Both the position numbers and the translations under genes were made by a program. Below the pieces are notes generated by a model, which ran no database searches, was not told the DNA's origin, and was given only the letters and a program-made list of their open reading frames with translations. A DNA stretch of 6,119 nucleotides, from positions 1 through 6,119 of IMG/VR virus record IMGVR_UViG_3300038585_000197, one strand, 5' to 3'. The stretch comes from a virus. Below, one piece after another: positions 1 to 6,096 of the stretch (position 1 is its first letter; the number at the start of each line of letters is the position of its first letter).

Positions 1-99
1 TTCCAAGGAACGTGCCAATAGTTGTTGCCATACGATGAGAGACTGGGCGCAGTATTTGATCGATTAGAAATTGCATTACTTAACCTTTCTTTGTGCAAT
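1..99. repeat. Terminal direct repeat, copy 1 (assembly overlap of a circular genome)
   Basis: Positions 1-99 (ttccaaggaacgtgccaatag...ctttctttgtgcaat) match 6021-6119 base for base when read by eye. This implies a circular unit of 6,020 nt. The repeat carries a duplicated 5' fragment (76..1, - strand) of the small ORF annotated at 5923..6096. Confidence 0.95.
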
Positions 100-400
100 A
101 TGGAACATAGCGGCGAGAGTTACCGCCTTTGCTTTTGTTATTAGTTGGGCGTTGTTTACAGGTTTGTCGCGACAAAGGCTTTTCACGCGACAATACCCGC
201 TTTTGAGAGGGAGCAACGCCCTTGGTATGGTCAATTTCTTGCCCAACCAATGCTTTTTGATTTACTCTTCCGATTTTTTCGTATTCGGAAAAGGTGTCAA
301 TGAATGTCCGCCTTTTAACCGATCGCGCAATTCGCGCTTGGTTGACCGGTCTTGGGGCGGTTATTTGTGTTCTTTGACTTTTTCCTGGTCGGCGAGCCAT
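80..400 (-). CDS. Highly basic 106-aa protein; candidate DNA-binding/packaging protein (functional analogue of phiX174 J or gokushovirus VP8/ORF5)
   Basis: It is the only long --strand ORF filling the gap between the Rep gene and the next gene. It is rich in Arg/Lys (MARRPGKSQRTQ..., ...KQRPTNNKSKGGNSRRY...). An AAAGG motif lies about 10 nt upstream of the ATG. The start overlaps the Rep 3' end by 40 nt. Its stop (82..80) lies 3 nt before the ATG of the 57-aa ORF on the circle. I did not recognise any sequence family. Confidence 0.6.
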   Translation of the reverse strand: MARRPGKSQRTQITAPRPVNQARIARSVKRRTFIDTFSEYEKIGRVNQKALVGQEIDHTKGVAPSQKRVLSREKPLSRQTCKQRPTNNKSKGGNSRRYVPYCTKKG

Positions 401-1398
401 TTTTTTGTTGCCTTTGCTTCTGCTTCCATTTCTTGACGGTTCTGCTCTTTATAGAGTGTCCACCTTGCTCTTCTTTCCTGGAATTCATCAATTTCAGCAA
501 TTTCCTCGCTTGTCAACACCACACCGGCCATAGAGCGCGGCGCGTGGGTTTCGGAATAGAATTTTATCTGCTCAGAAATTGGCAAATTTTCAAAGGCATC
601 TTTTATTTTCTTCAAATTATAGCGCCGATATGCATTTTCCATCCATTCTGTTTTTCTAGCATTTATGCCTTCCGGCCATAGTTCGAATAATCTATCAAAA
701 TACACCTCTTGCGCTTTTCCTTGCAGGGTATAGCGCCATTTTGAAGGATGCGCATTCGGAGGCATATAATTAAAGTTACGCGGAAAGACCTGCATTTCAG
801 CTTGTCTTTCTGCGAATTGACGCACCATTTGTTCGCCTAGAATTGGTCGTTTTGAGTAGCCGATCCATTCGCTTAGGTGCTGAGTTTTGTCGCGCTTTTT
901 CTTGCGCTCCTGTTCTTTGGCCTTCACCAGATATTTAACAATATATCGGATTTTGGCCTCAGATGTTCCGTGATCTGCATAGACATAGCCCCAAGGCCAG
1001 TGCTTCCAGCTCACGTAGTTTTTTTTATTTGGTATCTCGGGAGGTATCCCTTGGCCCATGAGGAGTACGTGGAAGTGGGTTCGCCCTTTTCTTTCACCGT
1101 ACTCACCAGCGGCCAGATATTTGAACTGCCAGTGACGCCTTAAACGACGTTGGAATTTTTGAAAGTCCTCCACGGTGACTATTTTGGTTTGAAGGGGATT
1201 TGTTATTTTCTTATCGTCGTAAGTAAGTGTTAGGGCCATGGTCCAGTCTGATTTATGGCTTTCCATAAGGCAGCGCCCGATCAAATCAAACATTTTGTTT
1301 TTTGAACATGCGTAGCAATGATTACACGGCACTAGGACCTTTTCATAAGTTGGCCCAGATAGTTTCCAAATCGGTTGTGGATTTACACACATTTGCAT
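361..1398 (-). CDS. Microviridae replication initiation protein (VP4 / phiX174 gpA-type HUH rolling-circle endonuclease)
   Basis: 345 aa. RCR motif 1 is present as ALTLTYDD. The HUH motif is present as RTHFHVLLMG, preceded by YLAAGEYGERKGR. The two-tyrosine catalytic motif is IRYIVKYLVKAK (Y-x-x-K-Y). An N-terminal Cys cluster PCNHCYAC is typical of VP4. SD AAGGA lies about 6 nt upstream of the ATG. Confidence 0.93.
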   Translation of the reverse strand: MQMCVNPQPIWKLSGPTYEKVLVPCNHCYACSKNKMFDLIGRCLMESHKSDWTMALTLTYDDKKITNPLQTKIVTVEDFQKFQRRLRRHWQFKYLAAGEYGERKGRTHFHVLLMGQGIPPEIPNKKNYVSWKHWPWGYVYADHGTSEAKIRYIVKYLVKAKEQERKKKRDKTQHLSEWIGYSKRPILGEQMVRQFAERQAEMQVFPRNFNYMPPNAHPSKWRYTLQGKAQEVYFDRLFELWPEGINARKTEWMENAYRRYNLKKIKDAFENLPISEQIKFYSETHAPRSMAGVVLTSEEIAEIDEFQERRARWTLYKEQNRQEMEAEAKATKKWLADQEKVKEHK

Positions 1399-1461
1399 TT
1401 TTTCCTTCTCTTTCGTCGTTAGGCGTGACGGCAGTTAGAATACGGTATCAAGAGATGTATT

Positions 1462-1504
1462 CAAACAGCCCCGAAATTTCTAGGAGAAATTTCGGGGCTG
1501 TTTG
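1462..1504. terminator. Perfect 20-bp stem / 3-nt loop hairpin, intrinsic-terminator-like; the strong T-tract is on the + strand side
   Basis: The sequence is caaacagccccgaaatttct-agg-agaaatttcggggctgtttg. The arms are exact reverse complements. On + it is followed by cTTTTTTa (1505-1512). On - it is followed only by gaatacatc, although the last stem bases supply UUUG. It lies 64 nt upstream of the Rep ATG in the - direction. Confidence 0.7.
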
Positions 1505-1604
1505 CTTTTTTAGCGTCTCACGTCGCTTTTTTTGCTTTGACCGTTGCAGCGCGCACATGGTGACCTATCGGGCTAACTGCTAAGACGGATCAAAGGTATA
1601 TTGA

Positions 1605-1620
1605 AGCCCCTTGCGGGGCT
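1605..1620. other. Short GC hairpin (6-bp stem, 4-nt loop)
   Basis: The sequence is agcccc-ttgc-ggggct. It shares the cggggctg arm sequence with the 1462-1504 hairpin. Confidence 0.4.
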
Positions 1621-1754
1621 GCTTTGTGAGCACACACGCACGCCGCTTCGCTGGGCGGCATGTATGCAGACGCTATTTTTTTGAGAATTCAGGAATGCGC
1701 TAGGCCGTTTGCGTTGTAACCGCGTACGATCCGGCTTTGCCCTATTCCTGAGAA

Positions 1755-1770
1755 GCGGCCTGCTGGCCGC
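1755..1770 (+). terminator. GC hairpin (6-bp stem, tetraloop) followed by a T-rich tail on the + strand
   Basis: The sequence is gcggcc-tgct-ggccgc, followed by gtttatttgtattctgttggttt on +. The tail in the - sense (ttctcagg) is poor. Confidence 0.35.
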
Positions 1771-1792
1771 GTTTATTTGTATTCTGTTGGTT

Positions 1793-1833
1793 TGGGGGGC
1801 GGTACCCACCTCGCTTCGCTCGCCCACCCCCCA
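1793..1833. other. Imperfect hairpin closed by a G6:C6 run
   Basis: tgggggg (1793-1799) pairs with cccccca (1827-1833). After a 1x1 mismatch, gg (1801-1802) pairs with cc (1824-1825). The loop is about 21 nt and contains ctcgcttcgctcg. Confidence 0.35.
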
Positions 1834-1936
1834 TTAATTGCGCTTGTGGCGCTTTTGATTTGCTTAGAGAGGTCTAGCTTATAATTTGTCGTCTGCCCTA
1901 TGCCTTGCGGCTAAAATCGGGCTTAGAAACGAATTA

Positions 1937-1955
1937 GGGCCGCTTAATGCGACCC
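1937..1955 (-). terminator. Imperfect hairpin spanning the stop codon of the last gene of the - strand gene string; candidate weak terminator
   Basis: On +, gggccgc-ttaat-gcgaccc forms 7 pairing positions with one C.A mismatch. In the - sense it is followed by taattcgtttctaagcccgatttt, which is moderately U-rich. The stop codon of the 60-aa ORF lies in the loop. Confidence 0.3.
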
Positions 1956-2126
1956 CATTGTTGGTTCTTTTTTTTCCTCATCATTTTGCCTTCGGAGTCG
2001 AGTGTGTTGCAAAATATTGTGCATGTGCTCAGAGAGTTGAGCATTTAGGAGTATCAATTGATTGAAGTCGAGGCGACAGATCGCGTCGACCGCGTCTGTC
2101 ATCGCTTTTTCTTTATTAATTGGCAT
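1944..2126 (-). CDS. Hypothetical 60-aa protein, apparently soluble with an acidic C-terminus
   Basis: The ORF track gives 1944..2168 (74 aa), but codon 2168..2166 is GTG. The in-frame ATG at 2126..2124 has SD AAGAGG about 9 nt upstream. That ATG overlaps the peptidase stop by 11 nt (aacaATGCCAATTAA). The product is MPINKEKAMTDAVDAICRLDFNQLILLNAQLSEHMHNILQHTRLRRQNDEEKKEPTMGSH. There is no TM segment and no lipobox. Confidence 0.5.
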   Translation of the reverse strand: MPINKEKAMTDAVDAICRLDFNQLILLNAQLSEHMHNILQHTRLRRQNDEEKKEPTMGSH

Positions 2127-2901
2127 TGTTGAGAACCTCTTTTGAAAATTCGGTATCTGTTGTTTCACCTGTTATTAGGTTGACCTTATCGCCACCCTTT
2201 ACTGCGTTATATGGCGTTACAGTTTCTTGCCACCCGTCATGAATGACGGTTGCACGTGAACGCCAGTCTCTTAACTCCCAATGGGCAGGGTCCCATTTGA
2301 ATGTATCATTTGGATCGCGAAGATCGGATTGAAAGAGGCTAGAAGTCTCATCACCGCCCCAGATTAATTTGTATCCATTTCGTTTTGCAATTCGCTTTCC
2401 TGTCATACCGACATAAAGCCAAAATTCTTTGGGAGCATCCCAATGATGATAAGCATGCACTACATCAATCGCGCAGCTACGTTGATGCGCGCCGTTTGTT
2501 GTTTTTGACAAACGTCGCTCAAACAATGTTTGCTGGAGATCAGGCGATCTATAGCAAGTATGGACGTACATAGGTATTCCGTCCTTTTTAAGTTGTCGAA
2601 ACAACTTTTCAGTAAATTCACGCAATTCTGGAGGACAACCAACCCAGTTAGCGCGAGAATGCTGTTTTAGCATGTAATTGCTAGAGAATGTATCTTGTGG
2701 AGATTTCAAGTATTGAAGTTGCTTTGCAACATCTTCAGGAAACCATTTTTGAAAGGGATCAACAGGATGTGGCTTAAAATTTTGCCACGCACGACGCATT
2801 AATTCGCTCGGCGTTGTTTTGATATACCCCTTATCAAGTAAGGTTTTATTTAATTTGGCGACTAGCGCCCTAATTAAAAGATTTTTTTCTGATTTTCTCA
2901 T
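2116..2901 (-). CDS. Zinc D,D-/L,D-peptidase of the VanY / Peptidase_M15 superfamily (endolysin-like cell-wall hydrolase)
   Basis: 261 aa. The Zn-ligand motif H-x6-D is present in GAHQRSCAIDVVH. A downstream WGGD is followed by DPAHWE (the D-x-x-H-[WF]-E motif). An upstream YRSPDLQQTLF segment matches the R-x-x-x-Q helix of M15_4/VanY-type enzymes. SD AAAGG lies 7 nt upstream of the ATG. About 85 N-terminal residues have no recognised domain and there is no obvious signal peptide. Confidence 0.85.
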   Translation of the reverse strand: MRKSEKNLLIRALVAKLNKTLLDKGYIKTTPSELMRRAWQNFKPHPVDPFQKWFPEDVAKQLQYLKSPQDTFSSNYMLKQHSRANWVGCPPELREFTEKLFRQLKKDGIPMYVHTCYRSPDLQQTLFERRLSKTTNGAHQRSCAIDVVHAYHHWDAPKEFWLYVGMTGKRIAKRNGYKLIWGGDETSSLFQSDLRDPNDTFKWDPAHWELRDWRSRATVIHDGWQETVTPYNAVKGGDKVNLITGETTDTEFSKEVLNNAN

Positions 2902-2922
2902 GTTTTTGCCTTTGTTTAAGAA

Positions 2923-2944
2923 AGGCCCCCAATTAAGGGAGCCT
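2923..2944 (-). terminator. Intergenic hairpin between the 166-aa gene and the peptidase gene; candidate partial terminator/attenuator
   Basis: On +, aggccccc-aattaa-gggagcct forms 8 pairing positions with one mismatch. In the - sense it is followed by ttcttaaac, then the SD AAAGG and the peptidase ATG. It sits in a 67-nt gap, the largest gap inside the gene string. Confidence 0.35.
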
Positions 2945-2968
2945 CGTTTACTTATTTAAGAACGGCAT

Positions 2969-3469
2969 TTACACCGCTTCCGAGGTTGTTTCCTCGGTTG
3001 TTTCCTCAGTTGCCTGCGAATCTGCTTCGGATGTTTCCTCGGTCTCTTCCTCATCGTCAATCACCTCGGTTGTTGGGCGTTTTTGCATCATTTTATCAAA
3101 TTCTGCTTTTTGTGCTTTCATCGCCGTGCGATTTTGTAGCTCCAACCTTCGAACCGCCTGTTTAACAATCGCGTTAAAGCCATCATCAAGCGGTTTCATT
3201 TCCGCGTTTGTGAAAACCTCCCCTTCGCTTACACGAAGTCGAGTTTTCGGCGCATAAACTGCGCTTTCGACGGAAGTTGACAGGTGATAATGGTCATTCG
3301 GACCCTCCACCTTAAATTCGCTGCCATATCCTAGAAGAATCTTGTCCGCCCCTAAATGGAGATAAAGCGCGGCGGGCGCCGCCAAACGAATGTGACAATT
3401 TCCATACGCGGGAATTTTATTGCCTTTCGGCATATGTTCCCAGTCGAGGCTATACTTGATCTTTTGCAT
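2969..3469 (-). CDS. Hypothetical 166-aa protein with a strongly acidic Glu/Thr-rich C-terminal tail; possible internal scaffolding (VP3-like) or other structural protein
   Basis: The start overlaps the capsid gene stop as TAATG. SD GGAG lies 8 nt upstream. The C-terminus is EVIDDEEETEETSEADSQATEETTEETTSEAV. Position immediately after the capsid gene suggests a morphogenesis role. I recognised no family motif. Confidence 0.6.
   Translation of the reverse strand: MQKIKYSLDWEHMPKGNKIPAYGNCHIRLAAPAALYLHLGADKILLGYGSEFKVEGPNDHYHLSTSVESAVYAPKTRLRVSEGEVFTNAEMKPLDDGFNAIVKQAVRRLELQNRTAMKAQKAEFDKMMQKRPTTEVIDDEEETEETSEADSQATEETTEETTSEAV
2984..3007. repeat. 12-bp tandem duplication (2 exact copies) inside the acidic tail coding region
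   Basis: ggttgtttcctc occurs at 2984-2995 and again at 2996-3007, followed by the related agttgc. It encodes the repeated EETT units in the - sense. Confidence 0.85.
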
Positions 3470-5136
3470 TAGACTTGCTCCGCTTCCACCATGGCGAATT
3501 CTGAATTATCTTCATTCAGAACATCACCGAATTGAGTTATTCCCGTAATTGTCAGTTGTTGTTGAACACCAATGTTTACGATGTGATTAGCTGGCACGCT
3601 AAAGACATCTTGAGGGAATGGTGAAGGACAAAGCCAATGGTCTGATGTAAATACGGGATCAACAATGTCGGCTTGCCAAATTGCAGTACGCCCCGACGTA
3701 TTTGGAGTACCTGGGGTACTTTGGATAAATTCACCACCGAGCCGCGTAAACTCACGTTTCCATTTGGAATTCATAGGCTCATAGCCGAATGTCCCCGCAG
3801 GTGTGGAATGAGCCGTATCCAAACGACGGTTCAAAACCGTATCAACAGGTTCAGTTCGCTGAATGTCGCGCAATGCATTTGGAAGATCATCGACGTCCGT
3901 GACATATAGATACTCGTCAGCTTGCCGCTCGTAAAGACGCTCAGGCATTACCTCAACAGTTGCCATTATAATCCCGCCGTATTCAGCGGTCGGAACGTTG
4001 ACGCTAAGCGTCATTTGAGCGCGACCAGTGCTAACACTGTCATCTAGGTTTGCAGCGTCAGTTGCGTGGCGTTCCGTCATTCCAAACACAACCGTTTTGC
4101 TATCAAGCAACCAAGGACGGTGCATAAGCTCATTTGGAACAGTGAAGCCCTGCAATAATTCAGACATAACAACATCATCGTTGTTGAAGCCGCTGAAATT
4201 TGAACCTGCATACGCAGCGGCCCGTTTTGCAAATGCCTGAGTTGTGCGGGCCTTATCAATATCCATAAGCGACGTTGGAATAGTCACACCTGTCATTTCA
4301 GCATTGATATCAGGAACACCTGCGGCACCTTCTTTCACAACGGTATGTGCTTCGCCCGCTCCGACTGGAGTTGCCGGACCATCTGAGACCCATCCAGTAA
4401 ATGTAACGTGTCCTGCATCTGCCGTAGTCGCCACATTCGAATACGACGTTGAAGCACTTTCGTTACGGATGCCAAATCCACTTACAGGAATTTGACCCGC
4501 TGTTACATCCAGATCAAGAGAACCTACAACTAGCGCTTGTTCATAATCTGGTACAATTTCAGACATACGATTGCGTGGCCAAAAGGCTTGCTTCAATGTT
4601 CGTGCATTGACTGCACTTTCTGCCCAATAGTCGTATTTCGTCATTTTTGACGAATGCGCCGCTAGTCGAAAATTTTGAATATGATTATATGCATCGATAT
4701 AATCATGGTTCATTTCCTGACCTGCAACACCGTGTATTCCTAGCGCCTGATAAATTTCCCCCGCCAAATCTGCATTCACTGATCCCGAAGGCGTCACCTC
4801 AAATAATGTCGGCGCCGCTCTCGTTGTACTATTCAAAGCTGTAATGGATTTGCCATGGTATGCGTGCGTATACTCATCCAATCCGCTAAAATGAGGTAGA
4901 GATGGGCGCGGAACAAACCACACTTGGCCACGGCCAATTACGGCGTTTTCAAGAGGTTTAGGCATTTCTGCCAATTGTAAATCGAGCGCAATCCGGCCCG
5001 AACAACTATCCTTTCGGAATAGCGGAGCAACCGCAACAGGAATTACCACGCCAGCATCACCGGACGTTCGGGTCGAACAATAATCCGGTCGGCGTGTCAT
5101 TCCGTACTCAATAGGTCTTGCATCTTGTCTAATCAT
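3469..5136 (-). CDS. Microviridae major capsid protein (VP1 / phiX174 F family)
   Basis: 555 aa, the largest ORF, with a size typical of non-bullavirus microviruses. The N-terminal pattern GVVIPVAVAPL...D...(about 30 aa)...VWFVPRPSL resembles the conserved G-x-[LV]-[IV]-P-[IV] ... F-[FV]-V-P-x-R layout of VP1/F proteins. A strong SD AGGAG lies 8 nt upstream. Synteny with the pilot and Rep genes supports the call. Confidence 0.88.
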   Translation of the reverse strand: MIRQDARPIEYGMTRRPDYCSTRTSGDAGVVIPVAVAPLFRKDSCSGRIALDLQLAEMPKPLENAVIGRGQVWFVPRPSLPHFSGLDEYTHAYHGKSITALNSTTRAAPTLFEVTPSGSVNADLAGEIYQALGIHGVAGQEMNHDYIDAYNHIQNFRLAAHSSKMTKYDYWAESAVNARTLKQAFWPRNRMSEIVPDYEQALVVGSLDLDVTAGQIPVSGFGIRNESASTSYSNVATTADAGHVTFTGWVSDGPATPVGAGEAHTVVKEGAAGVPDINAEMTGVTIPTSLMDIDKARTTQAFAKRAAAYAGSNFSGFNNDDVVMSELLQGFTVPNELMHRPWLLDSKTVVFGMTERHATDAANLDDSVSTGRAQMTLSVNVPTAEYGGIIMATVEVMPERLYERQADEYLYVTDVDDLPNALRDIQRTEPVDTVLNRRLDTAHSTPAGTFGYEPMNSKWKREFTRLGGEFIQSTPGTPNTSGRTAIWQADIVDPVFTSDHWLCPSPFPQDVFSVPANHIVNIGVQQQLTITGITQFGDVLNEDNSEFAMVEAEQV

Positions 5137-5161: not shown

Positions 5162-5923
5162 TTATTTCCACCAATTAAGGGTTCCTAATGGTGGAAGGGA
5201 AGTTTGTGGTAATGGCCGACGATCATAATAAGATCCATCAGGCGCGAGCTCACCATAATCTGGGGGGCGCTCTTCACTAAAGGTTAGAGCATTGCGCCAC
5301 CAGTTAGATATACGGTTGTCCTCATTCGCTTTTTCAAATTCAAGGATTTTCCGTATGGCGAAGCCTGTTATCATGCTATCGGCGTCAGGGCCTTCCGTTA
5401 CTTTAACAGTATTTCCTTGCTCACCTACATAGGTTTGCGTCGGGCTTTCGACCCTATCCGAAACAATTTCGCCATCCTCATTATAAGAAAGGCCAACTTG
5501 CGGCGCTCCAATAGCCCGCAACGCTGTTGTTATAATTGGGTCCACAGGAGGCACACCCTGAATAGGGTCTGCAGTTGGATATTCGTTTGGAATGAAGGCC
5601 GAACCCGCCGTACGACCACGACGAGCCTCATCAATTTGTATGCGCATTAAATCATTGCGCAATTCCAGGCTTTTTTGCTCGGCCGCCGAACGTCCAGTGA
5701 GAATGTCCTCAACCTTATCAAACGCATTTGTCATCGCGGTTTGCGTCATCAAAGGGGGTCTTTGCTGTTGAGCAAGACCCCCACGAATGGCTTCTAAAGG
5801 ATGAATGCCAGCTTCTTTCGCCTGGCGCACTGTATCGCTTATTCGGTTTTCATAGTTTTTTTGCTTTTGACGACCTTGGATAAGGCTTGCGCCAAAAGAT
5901 AGGAGAGGGCCTAGCCAGCTCAT
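5162..5923 (-). CDS. Microviridae minor capsid / DNA pilot protein (VP2 / H-like)
   Basis: 253 aa. The N-terminus MSWLGPLLSFGASLIQG... is Gly/Ala/Ser-rich and hydrophobic. It is followed by ...RQAKEAGIHPLEAIRGG, which matches the A-G-[LI]-N/H-P-[LI] motif I recall from VP2 proteins. It lies directly upstream of the capsid gene. SD GGAAGG lies 7 nt upstream. Its ATG overlaps the stop of the 57-aa ORF (TAATG). Confidence 0.78.
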   Translation of the reverse strand: MSWLGPLLSFGASLIQGRQKQKNYENRISDTVRQAKEAGIHPLEAIRGGLAQQQRPPLMTQTAMTNAFDKVEDILTGRSAAEQKSLELRNDLMRIQIDEARRGRTAGSAFIPNEYPTADPIQGVPPVDPIITTALRAIGAPQVGLSYNEDGEIVSDRVESPTQTYVGEQGNTVKVTEGPDADSMITGFAIRKILEFEKANEDNRISNWWRNALTFSEERPPDYGELAPDGSYYDRRPLPQTSLPPLGTLNWWK

Positions 5924-6096
5924 TAGAGAACCTTCCGTACAACAAGATCAATAAGAATGCCTACCGCAACAGGAATTGCGGCGACGATTGTTTGCACATC
6001 GTCAGAGGCATAACCAAGCGTTCCAAGGAACGTGCCAATAGTTGTTGCCATACGATGAGAGACTGGGCGCAGTATTTGATCGATTAGAAATTGCAT
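5923..6096 (-). CDS. Small 57-aa predicted membrane protein (absent from the ORF track); candidate holin-like or other membrane-active protein
   Basis: Hand translation gives MQFLIDQILRPVSHRMATTIGTFLGTLGYASDDVQTIVAAIPVAVGILIDLVVRKVL. The ATG is at 6096..6094, with AAAGG 7 nt upstream. An alternative internal ATG at 6051 would give 42 aa. An 18-residue hydrophobic stretch TIVAAIPVAVGILIDLVV is followed by RKVL. A second Gly-rich weakly hydrophobic stretch is TTIGTFLGTLGYA. The stop overlaps the pilot-gene ATG as TAATG. The 5' part lies in the terminal repeat. Confidence 0.55.
   Translation of the reverse strand: MQFLIDQILRPVSHRMATTIGTFLGTLGYASDDVQTIVAAIPVAVGILIDLVVRKVL

What the first reader, a model, noticed from the sequence alone, without database searches (positions are those of the whole stretch)
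2116..2901. VanY/M15-type zinc peptidase (endolysin-like) encoded by a microvirus
The catalytic signature can be read directly: H-x6-D in AHQRSCAID, WGGD, then D-x-x-H-W-E in DPAHWE. This is typical of VanY / Peptidase_M15_4-type D-Ala-D-Ala or L-Ala-D-Glu peptidases, which tailed phages use as endolysins. The classical microvirus paradigm is single-gene lysis without a muralytic enzyme; phiX174 E inhibits MraY. A peptidoglycan peptidase implies a different lysis strategy, or possibly an entry-associated one, and probably horizontal acquisition. I recall that M15-type peptidases have been noted sporadically in metagenome-derived microviruses, but I cannot verify this here. The class may therefore not be wholly new, but it is functionally uncharacterised in this context. 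Two details stand out. The roughly 85-aa N-terminal extension has no recognisable motif, signal peptide or SAR-like hydrophobic segment, which leaves periplasmic access unexplained. A hairpin and a 67-nt gap precede the gene, which may throttle its expression.
Basis: partly seen in the sequence, partly recalled or inferred. Interest (0 to 1): 0.72.

Follow-up and report, generated by a model that had tools for sequence, protein, structure and literature searches.

The report
Microvirus M15 endolysin with holin partner
This small single-stranded DNA phage carries a zinc cell-wall peptidase that most likely bursts the host cell, but the same gene at the same place is already a known hallmark of its lineage of microviruses, which infect alphaproteobacteria, so this is an ordinary new member.

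Summary
ORF 2116-2901 (minus strand, 261 aa) carries H139-x6-D146, W181-G-G-D and D204-x-x-H207, and these residues are conserved across 66 homologues.

Profile and fold comparisons place it with M15C-type L-Ala-D-Glu endopeptidases: ChiX, LysECD7, and the T5, RB49, Ply500 and LysB4 endolysins. Alone it falls below Pfam's cut-off, but its relatives hit Peptidase_M15_4.

It is not a sporadic or recent acquisition. Every fetched homologue lies between the capsid and replication genes of a related microvirus or microvirus prophage. These include Rhizobium and Roseobacter isolates annotated "endolysin" or "M15 metallopeptidase", and prophages in nine alphaproteobacterial genomes. Peptidase divergence tracks capsid divergence (Mantel rho 0.77). 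This gene position is already published.

- The only transmembrane protein of the genome (57 aa, 5923-6096) belongs to a conserved family linked to the Pam3-gp28 holin family. That would explain how the enzyme reaches the cell wall.
- The upstream hairpin (2922-2945) sits at the same position in two relatives, with different stem sequences.
- About half of the N-terminal extension is family-wide.

Verdict: new member of a known kind, low to moderate interest.

The parts
2116..2901 (-). Peptidase gene, 261 aa plus stop; putative endolysin
   Evidence: ORF list; PHROG 465 endolysin E 9e-14; identical protein on 8 contigs
2260..2676 (-). M15C-type catalytic core (LAS fold), residues 76-214
   Evidence: Aligned to RB49 and LysECD7 endopeptidases from residue 76. 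Family profile against ChiX, RB49, LysECD7, LysB4 and Ply500, E 4e-16 to 1e-13. Foldseek TM 0.72-0.74
2464..2487 (-). H139-x6-D146: first two zinc ligands (codons 2485-2487 and 2464-2466)
   Evidence: H139 invariant and D146 at least 90% conserved in 66 homologues. Aligned to HLTGHAVD of ChiX
2281..2292 (-). D204-P-A-H207: catalytic acid and third zinc ligand
   Evidence: Both invariant. Aligned to DGPH of ChiX
2350..2361 (-). W181-G-G-D184 motif
   Evidence: WGG invariant. It is followed by an 18-residue insertion, the low-confidence stretch of the model (blocks 181-200 average pLDDT 57-64; residues 186-191 below 50). This insertion may be why this sequence misses Pfam Peptidase_M15_4 (inference)
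2677..2901 (-). N-terminal extension, residues 1-75. All-helical, basic (residues 1-85: pI 10.1, net charge about +9)
   Evidence: Model helices 5-23, 31-40, 56-65 and 69-73, pLDDT 80-95; charge. Residues from about 41 align to the Rhizobium microvirus endolysin. The motif RLLxxGY..T..EL..AR is shared by a subset of the family. No Pfam match and no significant PDB match
2902..2968 (-). 67-nt intergenic spacer between the 166-aa gene and the peptidase gene, with an AAAGG Shine-Dalgarno-like element at 2909-2913
   Evidence: Sequence; alignment with relatives keeps AAAGGC before the ATG
2922..2945 (-). Stem-loop (9 bp, 6-nt loop) followed by UCUU; terminator- or attenuator-like
   Evidence: Folding z = -3.0; part of it is flagged as terminator-like. 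Hairpins sit at the same position in L007 and L008 with entirely different stem sequences (z -2.4 and -5.1)
5923..6096 (-). 57-aa membrane protein, candidate holin; its stop overlaps the start of the next gene (ATGA)
   Evidence: The only predicted transmembrane protein of the genome (residues 34-52, mean hydropathy 2.23). Family found at the same position in 41 of 79 related loci. 10 of 28 members hit Pfam Phage_holin_10 below its cut-off. The family profile reaches proteins that carry PF23987, one of them named 'Pam3-gp28 family putative phage holin'
1944..2126 (-). 60-aa ORF overlapping the peptidase 3' end by 11 nt; function unknown, not a spanin
   Evidence: Called on all contigs. Conserved in L007, L008, L013 and L014. 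No transmembrane segment and no lipobox
1935..1957 (-). Terminator-like hairpin at the end of the peptidase/60-aa ORF unit
   Evidence: 9 pairs, 6 of them G-C, with a T-rich tail
3469..5136 (-). Major capsid protein (context)
   Evidence: 50% identical to the Tortoise microvirus 38 capsid protein; 32-34% to Rhizobium and Roseobacter microvirus capsid proteins
361..1398 (-). Replication initiation protein (context)
   Evidence: Pfam REP_ORF2-G2P E 1e-15; PHROG 942 E 4e-33

Best explanation
The gene encodes an active zinc peptidoglycan peptidase of the LAS/M15 clan. It is closest to the M15C L-alanyl-D-glutamate endopeptidases and serves as the phage's endolysin.

Shown:
- The zinc ligands H139, D146 and H207, the catalytic D204 and the R118/Q123 pair are conserved.
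- The predicted fold matches solved M15C enzymes.
- The gene sits between the capsid and Rep genes in every fetched relative and co-diverges with them.

Inferred:
- Late in infection the soluble enzyme, which has no signal sequence, accumulates in the cytoplasm.
- The 57-aa membrane protein (5923-6096, Pam3-gp28-like holin family) opens the inner membrane and lets the enzyme reach the murein. There it cuts the stem peptide, probably at the L-Ala-D-Glu bond, and the cell bursts.
- The stem-loop in the 67-nt spacer partly terminates or shields the transcript coming from the capsid/scaffold genes, so less enzyme than capsid protein is made.
- No spanin is present, so the outer-membrane step is unexplained. 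The basic N-terminal helical module may bind the envelope or regulate the enzyme, but this is open.
For: - Motifs and invariant residues.
- PHROG endolysin family 465, E 9e-14.
- Family profile against PDB: ChiX 4e-16, RB49 7e-16, LysECD7 1e-15, LysB4 6e-14, Ply500 1e-13.
- 50 of 66 relatives hit Peptidase_M15_4; two annotated microvirus relatives pass its cut-off at 36.8 and 29.3 bits.
- AlphaFold pLDDT 85.9; Foldseek top hits are all L-Ala-D-Glu endopeptidases.
- All 64 GenBank phage records with a match are microviruses; the Rhizobium records listed are annotated 'endolysin protein' and the Roseobacter ones 'M15 family metallopeptidase'.
- 80 of 80 IMG/VR loci and 9 of 9 bacterial loci carry the related capsid gene, on the same strand and upstream of the peptidase wherever the contig is not split or concatenated. 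Where the contig reaches that far, Rep lies downstream on the same strand, with one exception.
- Similarity matrices of capsid and peptidase correlate: Mantel rho 0.77, p 0.001.
- Holin candidate.
- Hairpin kept in position with changed stem sequences.
- Literature: peptidase/amidase lysis genes are conserved between VP1 and VP4 (PMC9239249); most Occultatumvirinae carry an M15 peptidase (PMC11499846).
Against: - No enzyme of this microviral M15 clade has been assayed in the papers I could search. The one tested microvirus lysin, Ebor Gp7, is not homologous (hhalign probability 0.2).
- This sequence alone is below Pfam's cut-off, and NCBIfam gives nothing.
- The holin link rests on sub-threshold Pfam hits (best 22.4 bits among the ten members rescanned; best E 1.3e-5 over all 28; cut-off 27) plus a profile bridge, and membrane proteins attract compositional matches. 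The family was detected in 41 of 79 loci, not in all.
- No spanin or lipobox ORF was found.
- Bond specificity is inferred from the nearest solved relatives only.
- The role of the hairpin rests on three genomes. More distant relatives have overlapping scaffold and peptidase genes and no spacer.
Confidence: 0.78

Rival explanations
1. The enzyme is an endolysin but reaches the periplasm without a holin. For example, the basic N-terminal helical module could carry it across or destabilise membranes, or another phage protein could damage the membrane. The 57-aa membrane protein would then have another job, such as helping the pilot protein in DNA delivery or assembly.
For: - The 57-aa gene is coupled to the pilot-like gene (ATGA overlap) and lies far from the peptidase.
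- Pfam holin hits are all below the cut-off.
- The family was detected in only 41 of 79 loci.
- The N-terminal 85 residues carry about +9 net charge.
Against: - The N-terminus has no hydrophobic or strongly amphipathic 18-residue window.
- The membrane-protein family profile reaches proteins that carry PF23987, one named as a Pam3-gp28 holin.
- The Ebor membrane protein at the equivalent position was not found in virions (PMC11980548).
Confidence: 0.15
2. The peptidase is carried in or on the virion and opens the cell wall locally during entry, rather than at lysis.
For:
- Ebor's (non-homologous) lysin was seen in trace amounts in purified virions (PMC11980548, Table 1).
- The gene lies next to the structural genes.
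Against: - A T=1 microvirus capsid has little room for a 30-kDa passenger.
- Nothing in the sequence resembles a capsid- or pilot-binding module.
- The closest solved relatives are the free lytic enzymes of T5, RB49, A500 and B4, plus ChiX, which is released by a holin (ChiX-holin link from my own knowledge).
- A holin-like partner is present.
Confidence: 0.05
3. It is a VanY-like D-Ala-D-Ala or L,D-carboxypeptidase that trims stem peptides (wall remodelling, or superinfection exclusion in lysogens) rather than a wall-breaking endopeptidase.
For: - The only Pfam hit of the sequence itself is VanY.
- LdcB and VanY structures appear among the Foldseek hits.
- Relatives occur as prophages.
Against: - The carboxypeptidases rank well below the L-Ala-D-Glu endopeptidases in the structure comparison (E 1e-3 or weaker against 3e-6) and do not appear among the PDB sequence-profile hits at all.
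- Lytic isolates keep the gene.
Confidence: 0.04

Closest known systems
Endolysin / M15 metallopeptidase of Occultatumvirinae-type microviruses: Rhizobium phages RHph_TM1_7A (EVB45_007) and RHph_TM3_3_5A; Roseobacter phages CRPss-151 to -155; many Tortoise and Flyfo microviruses
   Same: Homologous at 27-36% identity over 130-210 residues. Same position after the capsid and scaffold-like genes and before Rep. Same catalytic residues. The related capsid protein is 30-50% identical.
   Different: The window protein is longer (261 aa against 173-223). It has about 40 extra N-terminal residues, an 18-residue insertion after WGGD and a 47-residue acidic tail. In the isolates the gene overlaps the upstream gene; here a 67-nt spacer with a hairpin precedes it. 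GC is 46%, against 59-60% for the Rhizobium microviruses (PMC9512667).
M15C L-alanyl-D-glutamate endopeptidases with solved structures: ChiX (5opz), LysECD7 (8q2g), RB49 (23ri), EndoT5 (2mxz), Ply500 (2vo9), LysB4 (6akv)
   Same: LAS fold; H-x6-D...D-x-x-H zinc site; R-S-x3-Q motif.
   Different: Only 19-22% identity. Those enzymes are about 130 residues (or carry C-terminal wall-binding domains) and lack the 75-residue N-terminal helical module. They come from tailed phages or, for ChiX, a bacterial secretion system.
M15_3 peptidases of Gokushovirinae and Alpavirinae (Roux et al. 2012, PMC3394797)
   Same: A zinc peptidase of the same clan carried by microviruses and proposed to act as an endolysin.
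   Different: A different Pfam family (PF08291). It is sporadic (11 genomes) and shows clear recent transfers from Bacteroidetes and Firmicutes or their phages. Here the gene is a stable, co-diverging part of the lineage.
Ebor Gp7, the only microvirus peptidoglycan hydrolase assayed so far (PMC11980548)
   Same: Same genome position (after the capsid and two small genes, before Rep). Same presumed role. A small membrane protein gene (Gp1) lies upstream of the pilot gene, as here.
   Different: Not homologous (hhalign probability 0.2; no Pfam M15 hit).
phiX174 protein E (single-gene lysis by MraY inhibition)
   Same: The lysis function of a microvirus.
   Different: E is an overprinted membrane protein with no enzyme activity. 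Here there is a separate enzyme gene and a separate membrane-protein gene, as in tailed phages.

Membership tests
Peptidase M15 / LAS clan (Pfam clan Peptidase_MD), M15C-type | Zinc ligand triad His-x(3-6)-Asp ... His | tested here: met
   H139-x6-D146 and H207. H139 and H207 are invariant and D146 is at least 90% conserved in 66 homologues. They align to the ChiX ligand motifs.
Peptidase M15 / LAS clan (Pfam clan Peptidase_MD), M15C-type | Catalytic acid three residues before the last His (Asp/Glu-x-x-His) | tested here: met
   D204-P-A-H207; D204 is invariant.
Peptidase M15 / LAS clan (Pfam clan Peptidase_MD), M15C-type | Conserved Arg-Ser-x3-Gln segment upstream of the first His | tested here: met
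   R118-S-P-D-L-Q123; R118 and Q123 are invariant. Aligned to RSMARQ of ChiX and RSLETQ of RB49.
Peptidase M15 / LAS clan (Pfam clan Peptidase_MD), M15C-type | LAS fold | tested here: met
   Predicted model only: pLDDT 85.9. Foldseek: ChiX E 3e-6, TM 0.72; LysECD7 TM 0.74; then T5, RB49, Ply500 and LysB4.
Peptidase M15 / LAS clan (Pfam clan Peptidase_MD), M15C-type | Score above the curated cut-off of a Pfam M15 model (VanY PF02557, Peptidase_M15_4 PF13539) | tested here: inconclusive
   This sequence: VanY 19.6 bits against a cut-off of 25, and no M15_4 hit. Relatives: 50 of 66 hit M15_4 at E <= 0.01, and two pass the cut-off at 36.8 and 29.3 bits. The family profile against solved M15C enzymes gives E 4e-16.
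Peptidase M15 / LAS clan (Pfam clan Peptidase_MD), M15C-type | Zinc-dependent cleavage of the peptidoglycan stem peptide (L-Ala-D-Glu bond for M15C) | not testable with these tools
   Needs a zymogram and muropeptide analysis.
Lysis module of Occultatumvirinae-type microviruses (Families 7/14 of Kirchberger et al. 2022) | Peptidase/amidase gene located between VP1 and VP4, in a genome with the related capsid and Rep proteins | tested here: met
   Order on the coding strand: capsid, 166-aa gene, peptidase, Rep..., pilot-like gene. Same order in the relatives. Published order VP1-peptidase/amidase-VP4-VP2 (PMC9239249). The subfamily or family label itself was not tested by phylogeny.
Holin, Pam3-gp28 family (Pfam PF23987), for the 57-aa ORF 5923-6096 | Small protein with transmembrane segment(s) and a charged C-terminus | tested here: met
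   57 aa; hydrophobic segment at residues 34-52 (mean hydropathy 2.23); C-terminal RK; a weaker glycine-rich segment at residues 16-29.
Holin, Pam3-gp28 family (Pfam PF23987), for the 57-aa ORF 5923-6096 | Sequence membership in PF23987 | tested here: inconclusive
   The window protein scores 15.5 bits against a cut-off of 27. 10 of 28 family members hit the same model in the same register, best E 1.3e-5, none of those rescanned above the cut-off. The family profile finds Rhizobium phage RHph_TM32 EVB46_003 (E 8e-13) and Rhizobium proteins that carry PF23987, one named 'Pam3-gp28 family putative phage holin'.
Holin, Pam3-gp28 family (Pfam PF23987), for the 57-aa ORF 5923-6096 | Timed permeabilisation of the inner membrane that releases the endolysin | not testable with these tools
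   Needs co-expression and lysis-timing experiments.
Signal-anchor-release (SAR) or secreted endolysin | N-terminal hydrophobic signal or SAR segment | tested here: not met
   The highest 19-residue hydropathy mean in the whole protein is 0.54.
Spanin (Rz/Rz1 or unimolecular) | Lipobox-bearing outer-membrane lipoprotein ORF, often embedded or adjacent | tested here: not met
   No ORF of 25 aa or more on either strand has a charged n-region, hydrophobic stretch and lipobox. The adjacent 60-aa ORF has no transmembrane segment.
phiX174 E-type single-gene lysis protein | Overprinted small membrane protein as the only lysis factor, with no muralytic enzyme | tested here: not met
   A muralytic enzyme gene is present. 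The only membrane-protein ORF is a free-standing gene, not overprinted.

The most novel reading that the evidence does not exclude
This lineage of microviruses, which infect alphaproteobacteria, runs a tailed-phage-style two-component lysis system split across a 6-kb ssDNA genome. A Pam3-gp28-type holin is encoded just upstream of the pilot gene. A lineage-specific M15C endolysin is encoded after the capsid genes. A structured RNA element sets the endolysin dose, and a basic N-terminal helical module has no counterpart in solved endolysins and might stand in for the missing spanin. None of the microvirus papers I could search mentions a holin (no occurrence of the word in PMC9239249, PMC9753089, PMC11499846, PMC11980548 or PMC9512667).
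Probability: 0.35. Interest if true: 0.45.

Novelty: new member of a known kind. Interest (0 to 1): 0.27.

Why it matters
It adds one more genome, and a small clade of three, to a lineage in which enzyme-based lysis is already the rule rather than phiX174-style MraY inhibition.

Two things are modestly useful. First, the paired holin candidate makes the lysis pathway of these abundant soil, marine and gut-associated ssDNA phages directly testable with two small genes. Second, the prophage hits point to Alphaproteobacteria as the likely host range for an otherwise host-less metagenomic virus; among those prophages the capsid is closest to the ones in Rhodobacterales.

The microviral M15 clade remains biochemically untested in the literature I could search. 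The compact enzyme and its unusual N-terminal module could therefore interest people working on lysins.

Tried and rejected
- NCBIfam gave nothing for the peptidase or any other protein tested.
- The word-index homologue search found only 4 proteins. The exhaustive profile search was needed and found 603.
- Ebor Gp7 as an experimentally tested homologue: rejected, not homologous.
- A genome-contig scan with the 66-sequence alignment failed for lack of a conserved stretch. It was redone with the 4-sequence alignment.
- The first test of co-inheritance used window-centred bit scores and was weak (rho 0.23), because nearly all relatives are equally distant from the window. The all-against-all comparison gave rho 0.77.
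- N-terminal module: no Pfam family. The PDB profile hit to DotG/IcmE (E 7e-7) is a sum of ten repeat matches, none significant on its own, so I treat it as a weak lead only.
- Spanin/lipobox scan: nothing.
- dif/XerCD site search with the Ebor and E. coli motifs: best matches had 10 or more mismatches out of 28.
- tRNA and Rfam scans: nothing above threshold.
- Recent horizontal transfer from tailed phages: rejected, because no tailed phage in 50,697 records matches at E <= 1e-3.
Full report
**1. What is in the window**

The window is a complete circular genome of 6020 nt. Its first 99 nt repeat at the end, and an ENA contig of 12,095 nt is a head-to-tail dimer of it. All genes lie on the minus strand:
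- Rep, 361-1398 (Pfam REP_ORF2-G2P E 1e-15; PHROG 942 E 4e-33).
- A basic 106-aa ORF, 80-400, overlapping the Rep 3' end.
- A 57-aa membrane protein, 5923-6096.
- A 253-aa protein, 5162-5923. I call it pilot-like from its position only.
- A 555-aa capsid protein, 3469-5136.
- A 166-aa protein with an acidic tail, 2969-3469.
- The 261-aa ORF of the finding, 2116-2901.
- A 60-aa ORF, 1944-2126.
- A 545-nt non-coding stretch, 1399-1943.

The capsid protein misses Pfam entirely. It is nevertheless 50% identical to the annotated capsid protein of Tortoise microvirus 38, and 30-34% identical to those of the Rhizobium and Roseobacter microvirus isolates. 'Encoded by a microvirus' is therefore correct.

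**2. The observation**

In an alignment of 66 of them, R118, Q123, H139, W181, G182, G183, D204 and H207 are invariant and D146 is nearly so.

The 67-nt gap and the hairpin are also real, and the protein has no hydrophobic segment.

**3. What the protein is**

Taken alone, the sequence is a weak Pfam match: VanY at 19.6 bits, below the cut-off of 25, and no Peptidase_M15_4 hit. An 18-residue insertion after WGGD, the low-confidence stretch of the model, may be the reason; this is my inference.

The family-level evidence is strong:
- PHROG 465 'endolysin', E 9e-14.
- 50 of 66 relatives hit Peptidase_M15_4.
- The family profile matches solved L-Ala-D-Glu endopeptidases: ChiX 4e-16, RB49 7e-16, LysECD7 1e-15, LysB4 6e-14, Ply500 1e-13 and T5 3e-3. 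The zinc-ligand and catalytic motifs are in register.
- An AlphaFold model (pLDDT 85.9) finds the same enzymes first by Foldseek (ChiX TM 0.72, LysECD7 TM 0.74). The VanY and LdcB carboxypeptidases rank lower.

The best label is therefore an M15C-type LAS peptidase. The L-Ala-D-Glu specificity is inferred from these neighbours and has not been shown.

**4. It is a lineage gene, not a sporadic pick-up**

- A tblastn search of 50,697 GenBank phage records found 64 matches, all of them microviruses and none a tailed phage. The Rhizobium records listed are annotated 'endolysin protein' and the Roseobacter ones 'M15 family metallopeptidase'.
- IMG/VR holds 177 loci. The best 80 are all contigs of about 2-13 kb. 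Each carries the related capsid gene, which lies on the same strand upstream of the peptidase wherever the contig is not split or concatenated. Where the contig reaches that far, Rep lies downstream on the same strand, with one exception.
- Nine GTDB genomes carry the same block as a prophage, and all are Alphaproteobacteria: three Mesorhizobium, Aminobacter, Pseudaminobacter, Sinirhodobacter, Rhodobacter capsulatus, Roseobacter and Paracoccus. Among them, the three with the closest capsid (48-49% identity: Sinirhodobacter, Rhodobacter, Paracoccus) are Rhodobacterales.
- Over 59 loci, the all-against-all similarity matrices of capsid and peptidase correlate (Mantel rho 0.77, p 0.001). This is close to the value for capsid against Rep, 0.86. 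Clusters of near-identical genomes contribute to these values, so they show mainly that no gross exchange has taken place.

The literature already describes this:
- M15_3 peptidases in gokusho- and alpaviruses, proposed as endolysins (PMC3394797).
- Peptidase/amidase lysis genes conserved between VP1 and VP4, with the order VP1-peptidase/amidase-VP4-VP2 in Families 7 and 14 (PMC9239249).
- M15 peptidase in most Occultatumvirinae (PMC11499846).
- mcp, rep and lys described as the basic gene set of the Rhizobium microviruses (PMC9512667).

**5. What has and has not been tested experimentally**

The Ebor paper reports the first assayed peptidoglycan hydrolase of an ssDNA phage (PMC11980548). I fetched Ebor. 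Its Gp7 is not homologous to this family (hhalign probability 0.2; no Pfam hit). In the papers I could search, the microviral M15 clade is still unassayed.

**6. How the enzyme could reach the wall**

The peptidase has no signal or SAR segment. The genome has exactly one predicted membrane protein, the 57-aa ORF.

An iterated HMM search of small ORFs lying between Rep and the capsid gene found homologues of it in 41 of 79 related loci. These include the Rhizobium and Roseobacter isolates and several prophages. The shared pattern is P-x2-R-R-x-G-T-x2-G ... D-L.

Ten of 28 members hit Pfam Phage_holin_10 (Pam3 gp28 family) in the same register, all below the cut-off. A database search with the family profile reaches Rhizobium phage RHph_TM32 EVB46_003 (E 8e-13) and Rhizobium chromosomal proteins that do carry PF23987. 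UniRef names one of these 'Pam3-gp28 family putative phage holin'.

I therefore read the 57-aa protein as the probable holin. None of the five microvirus papers I checked contains the word holin. No spanin-like lipoprotein ORF exists, so the outer-membrane step is open.

**7. The hairpin**

In the two closest relatives (L007 and L008: peptidase 61-64% identical, capsid 70-73%), the spacer between the scaffold-like gene and the peptidase also holds a strong stem-loop about 25-30 nt before the ATG. The stem sequences are completely different:
- Window: GAGGCUCCC / GGGGGCCUU.
- L007: GGAAGGGCG / CGCCCUUCC.
- L008: AAGGGGGCGC / GCGCCCCCUU.

The AAAGGC ribosome-binding element is conserved in all three. 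Keeping the structure while the sequence changes argues for a function. A partial terminator or a transcript-end stabiliser, as in the phiX174 transcription pattern (my own knowledge), is the simplest reading. Three genomes are too few for a statistical covariation test. More distant relatives have overlapping genes instead of a spacer.

**8. The N-terminal extension**

The M15C core starts at about residue 76. Residues from about 41 to 75 align across the family, including the 173-aa Rhizobium enzyme. Residues 1-40 occur in a subset that shares the motif R-L-L-x2-G-Y-x3-T-x2-E-L-x3-A-R.

The module is predicted helical with high confidence and is strongly basic. It has no Pfam match, and the only PDB hit is a non-significant sum of matches to the DotG/IcmE repeats. 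Its role is unknown. Wall or envelope binding and regulation are both guesses.

**9. Verdict**

However, the gene is the expected lysis gene of a published microvirus lineage. It is a new member of a known kind, with three modest additions: a holin candidate, a positionally conserved hairpin, and a conserved N-terminal module. Interest 0.27.

Noticed in passing
window 1399-1943: A 545-nt non-coding stretch between the 60-aa ORF and Rep holds several G+C-rich hairpins, including a 20-bp stem at 1462-1504 followed by a T-run on the plus strand, and others at 1755-1770 and 1840-1852. It could hold the complementary-strand origin, promoters or an attachment site. No dif-like site, tRNA or Rfam family was found.
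   Followed up: partly
window 3469-5136: The capsid protein gets no Pfam hit at all and only E 0.005 against PHROG 514, although it is 50% identical to an annotated microvirus capsid protein. Standard Pfam-based screens would miss this lineage.
   Followed up: partly
window 80-400: A very basic 106-aa ORF overlaps the 3' end of Rep. It has the same position and character as Ebor Gp10, a virion protein proposed to neutralise DNA charge (PMC11980548). Weak tblastn matches appear at the same place in Ebor-unrelated relatives.
   Followed up: no
window 1944-2126: A 60-aa ORF overlaps the peptidase stop by 11 nt and is conserved in L007, L008, L013 and L014 (31-67% identity). It has no transmembrane segment, no lipobox and no family match. 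It ends in a terminator-like hairpin at 1935-1957. It may belong to the lysis unit.
   Followed up: partly
window, whole genome: GC content is 46.2%, far below the 59-60% reported for Rhizobium microviruses (PMC9512667). The hosts of the prophage relatives are also G+C-rich (my own knowledge, not measured here). The host may therefore be a lower-GC alphaproteobacterium or something else. The same genome appears in several samples (ENA ERZ28604369 and ERZ28602719, SRR2135738-40, JGI 3300038758).
   Followed up: no
P0111 (representative library): A 3408-aa protein matches the peptidase profile in 13 separate stretches (E 4e-27). It is either a giant protein with repeated M15 domains or an assembly or gene-calling artefact.
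   Followed up: no
L027 (6170-6400 and 7630-7839), L039 (6001-6210 and 6807-7016): Two copies of the holin-like ORF were found in single IMG/VR contigs of 7281 and 6650 nt. Coordinates are on the doubled (circularised) contig sequence used in that scan. These are either real duplications or contigs with long terminal redundancy.
   Followed up: no
window 2677-2901 (peptidase residues 10-35): The N-terminal motif L-L-x2-G-Y-x3-T-x2-E-L resembles the short repeats of the Legionella type IV secretion protein DotG/IcmE (LKAAGYTAKELK). The summed score gives E 7e-7, but no single repeat is significant.
   Followed up: partly
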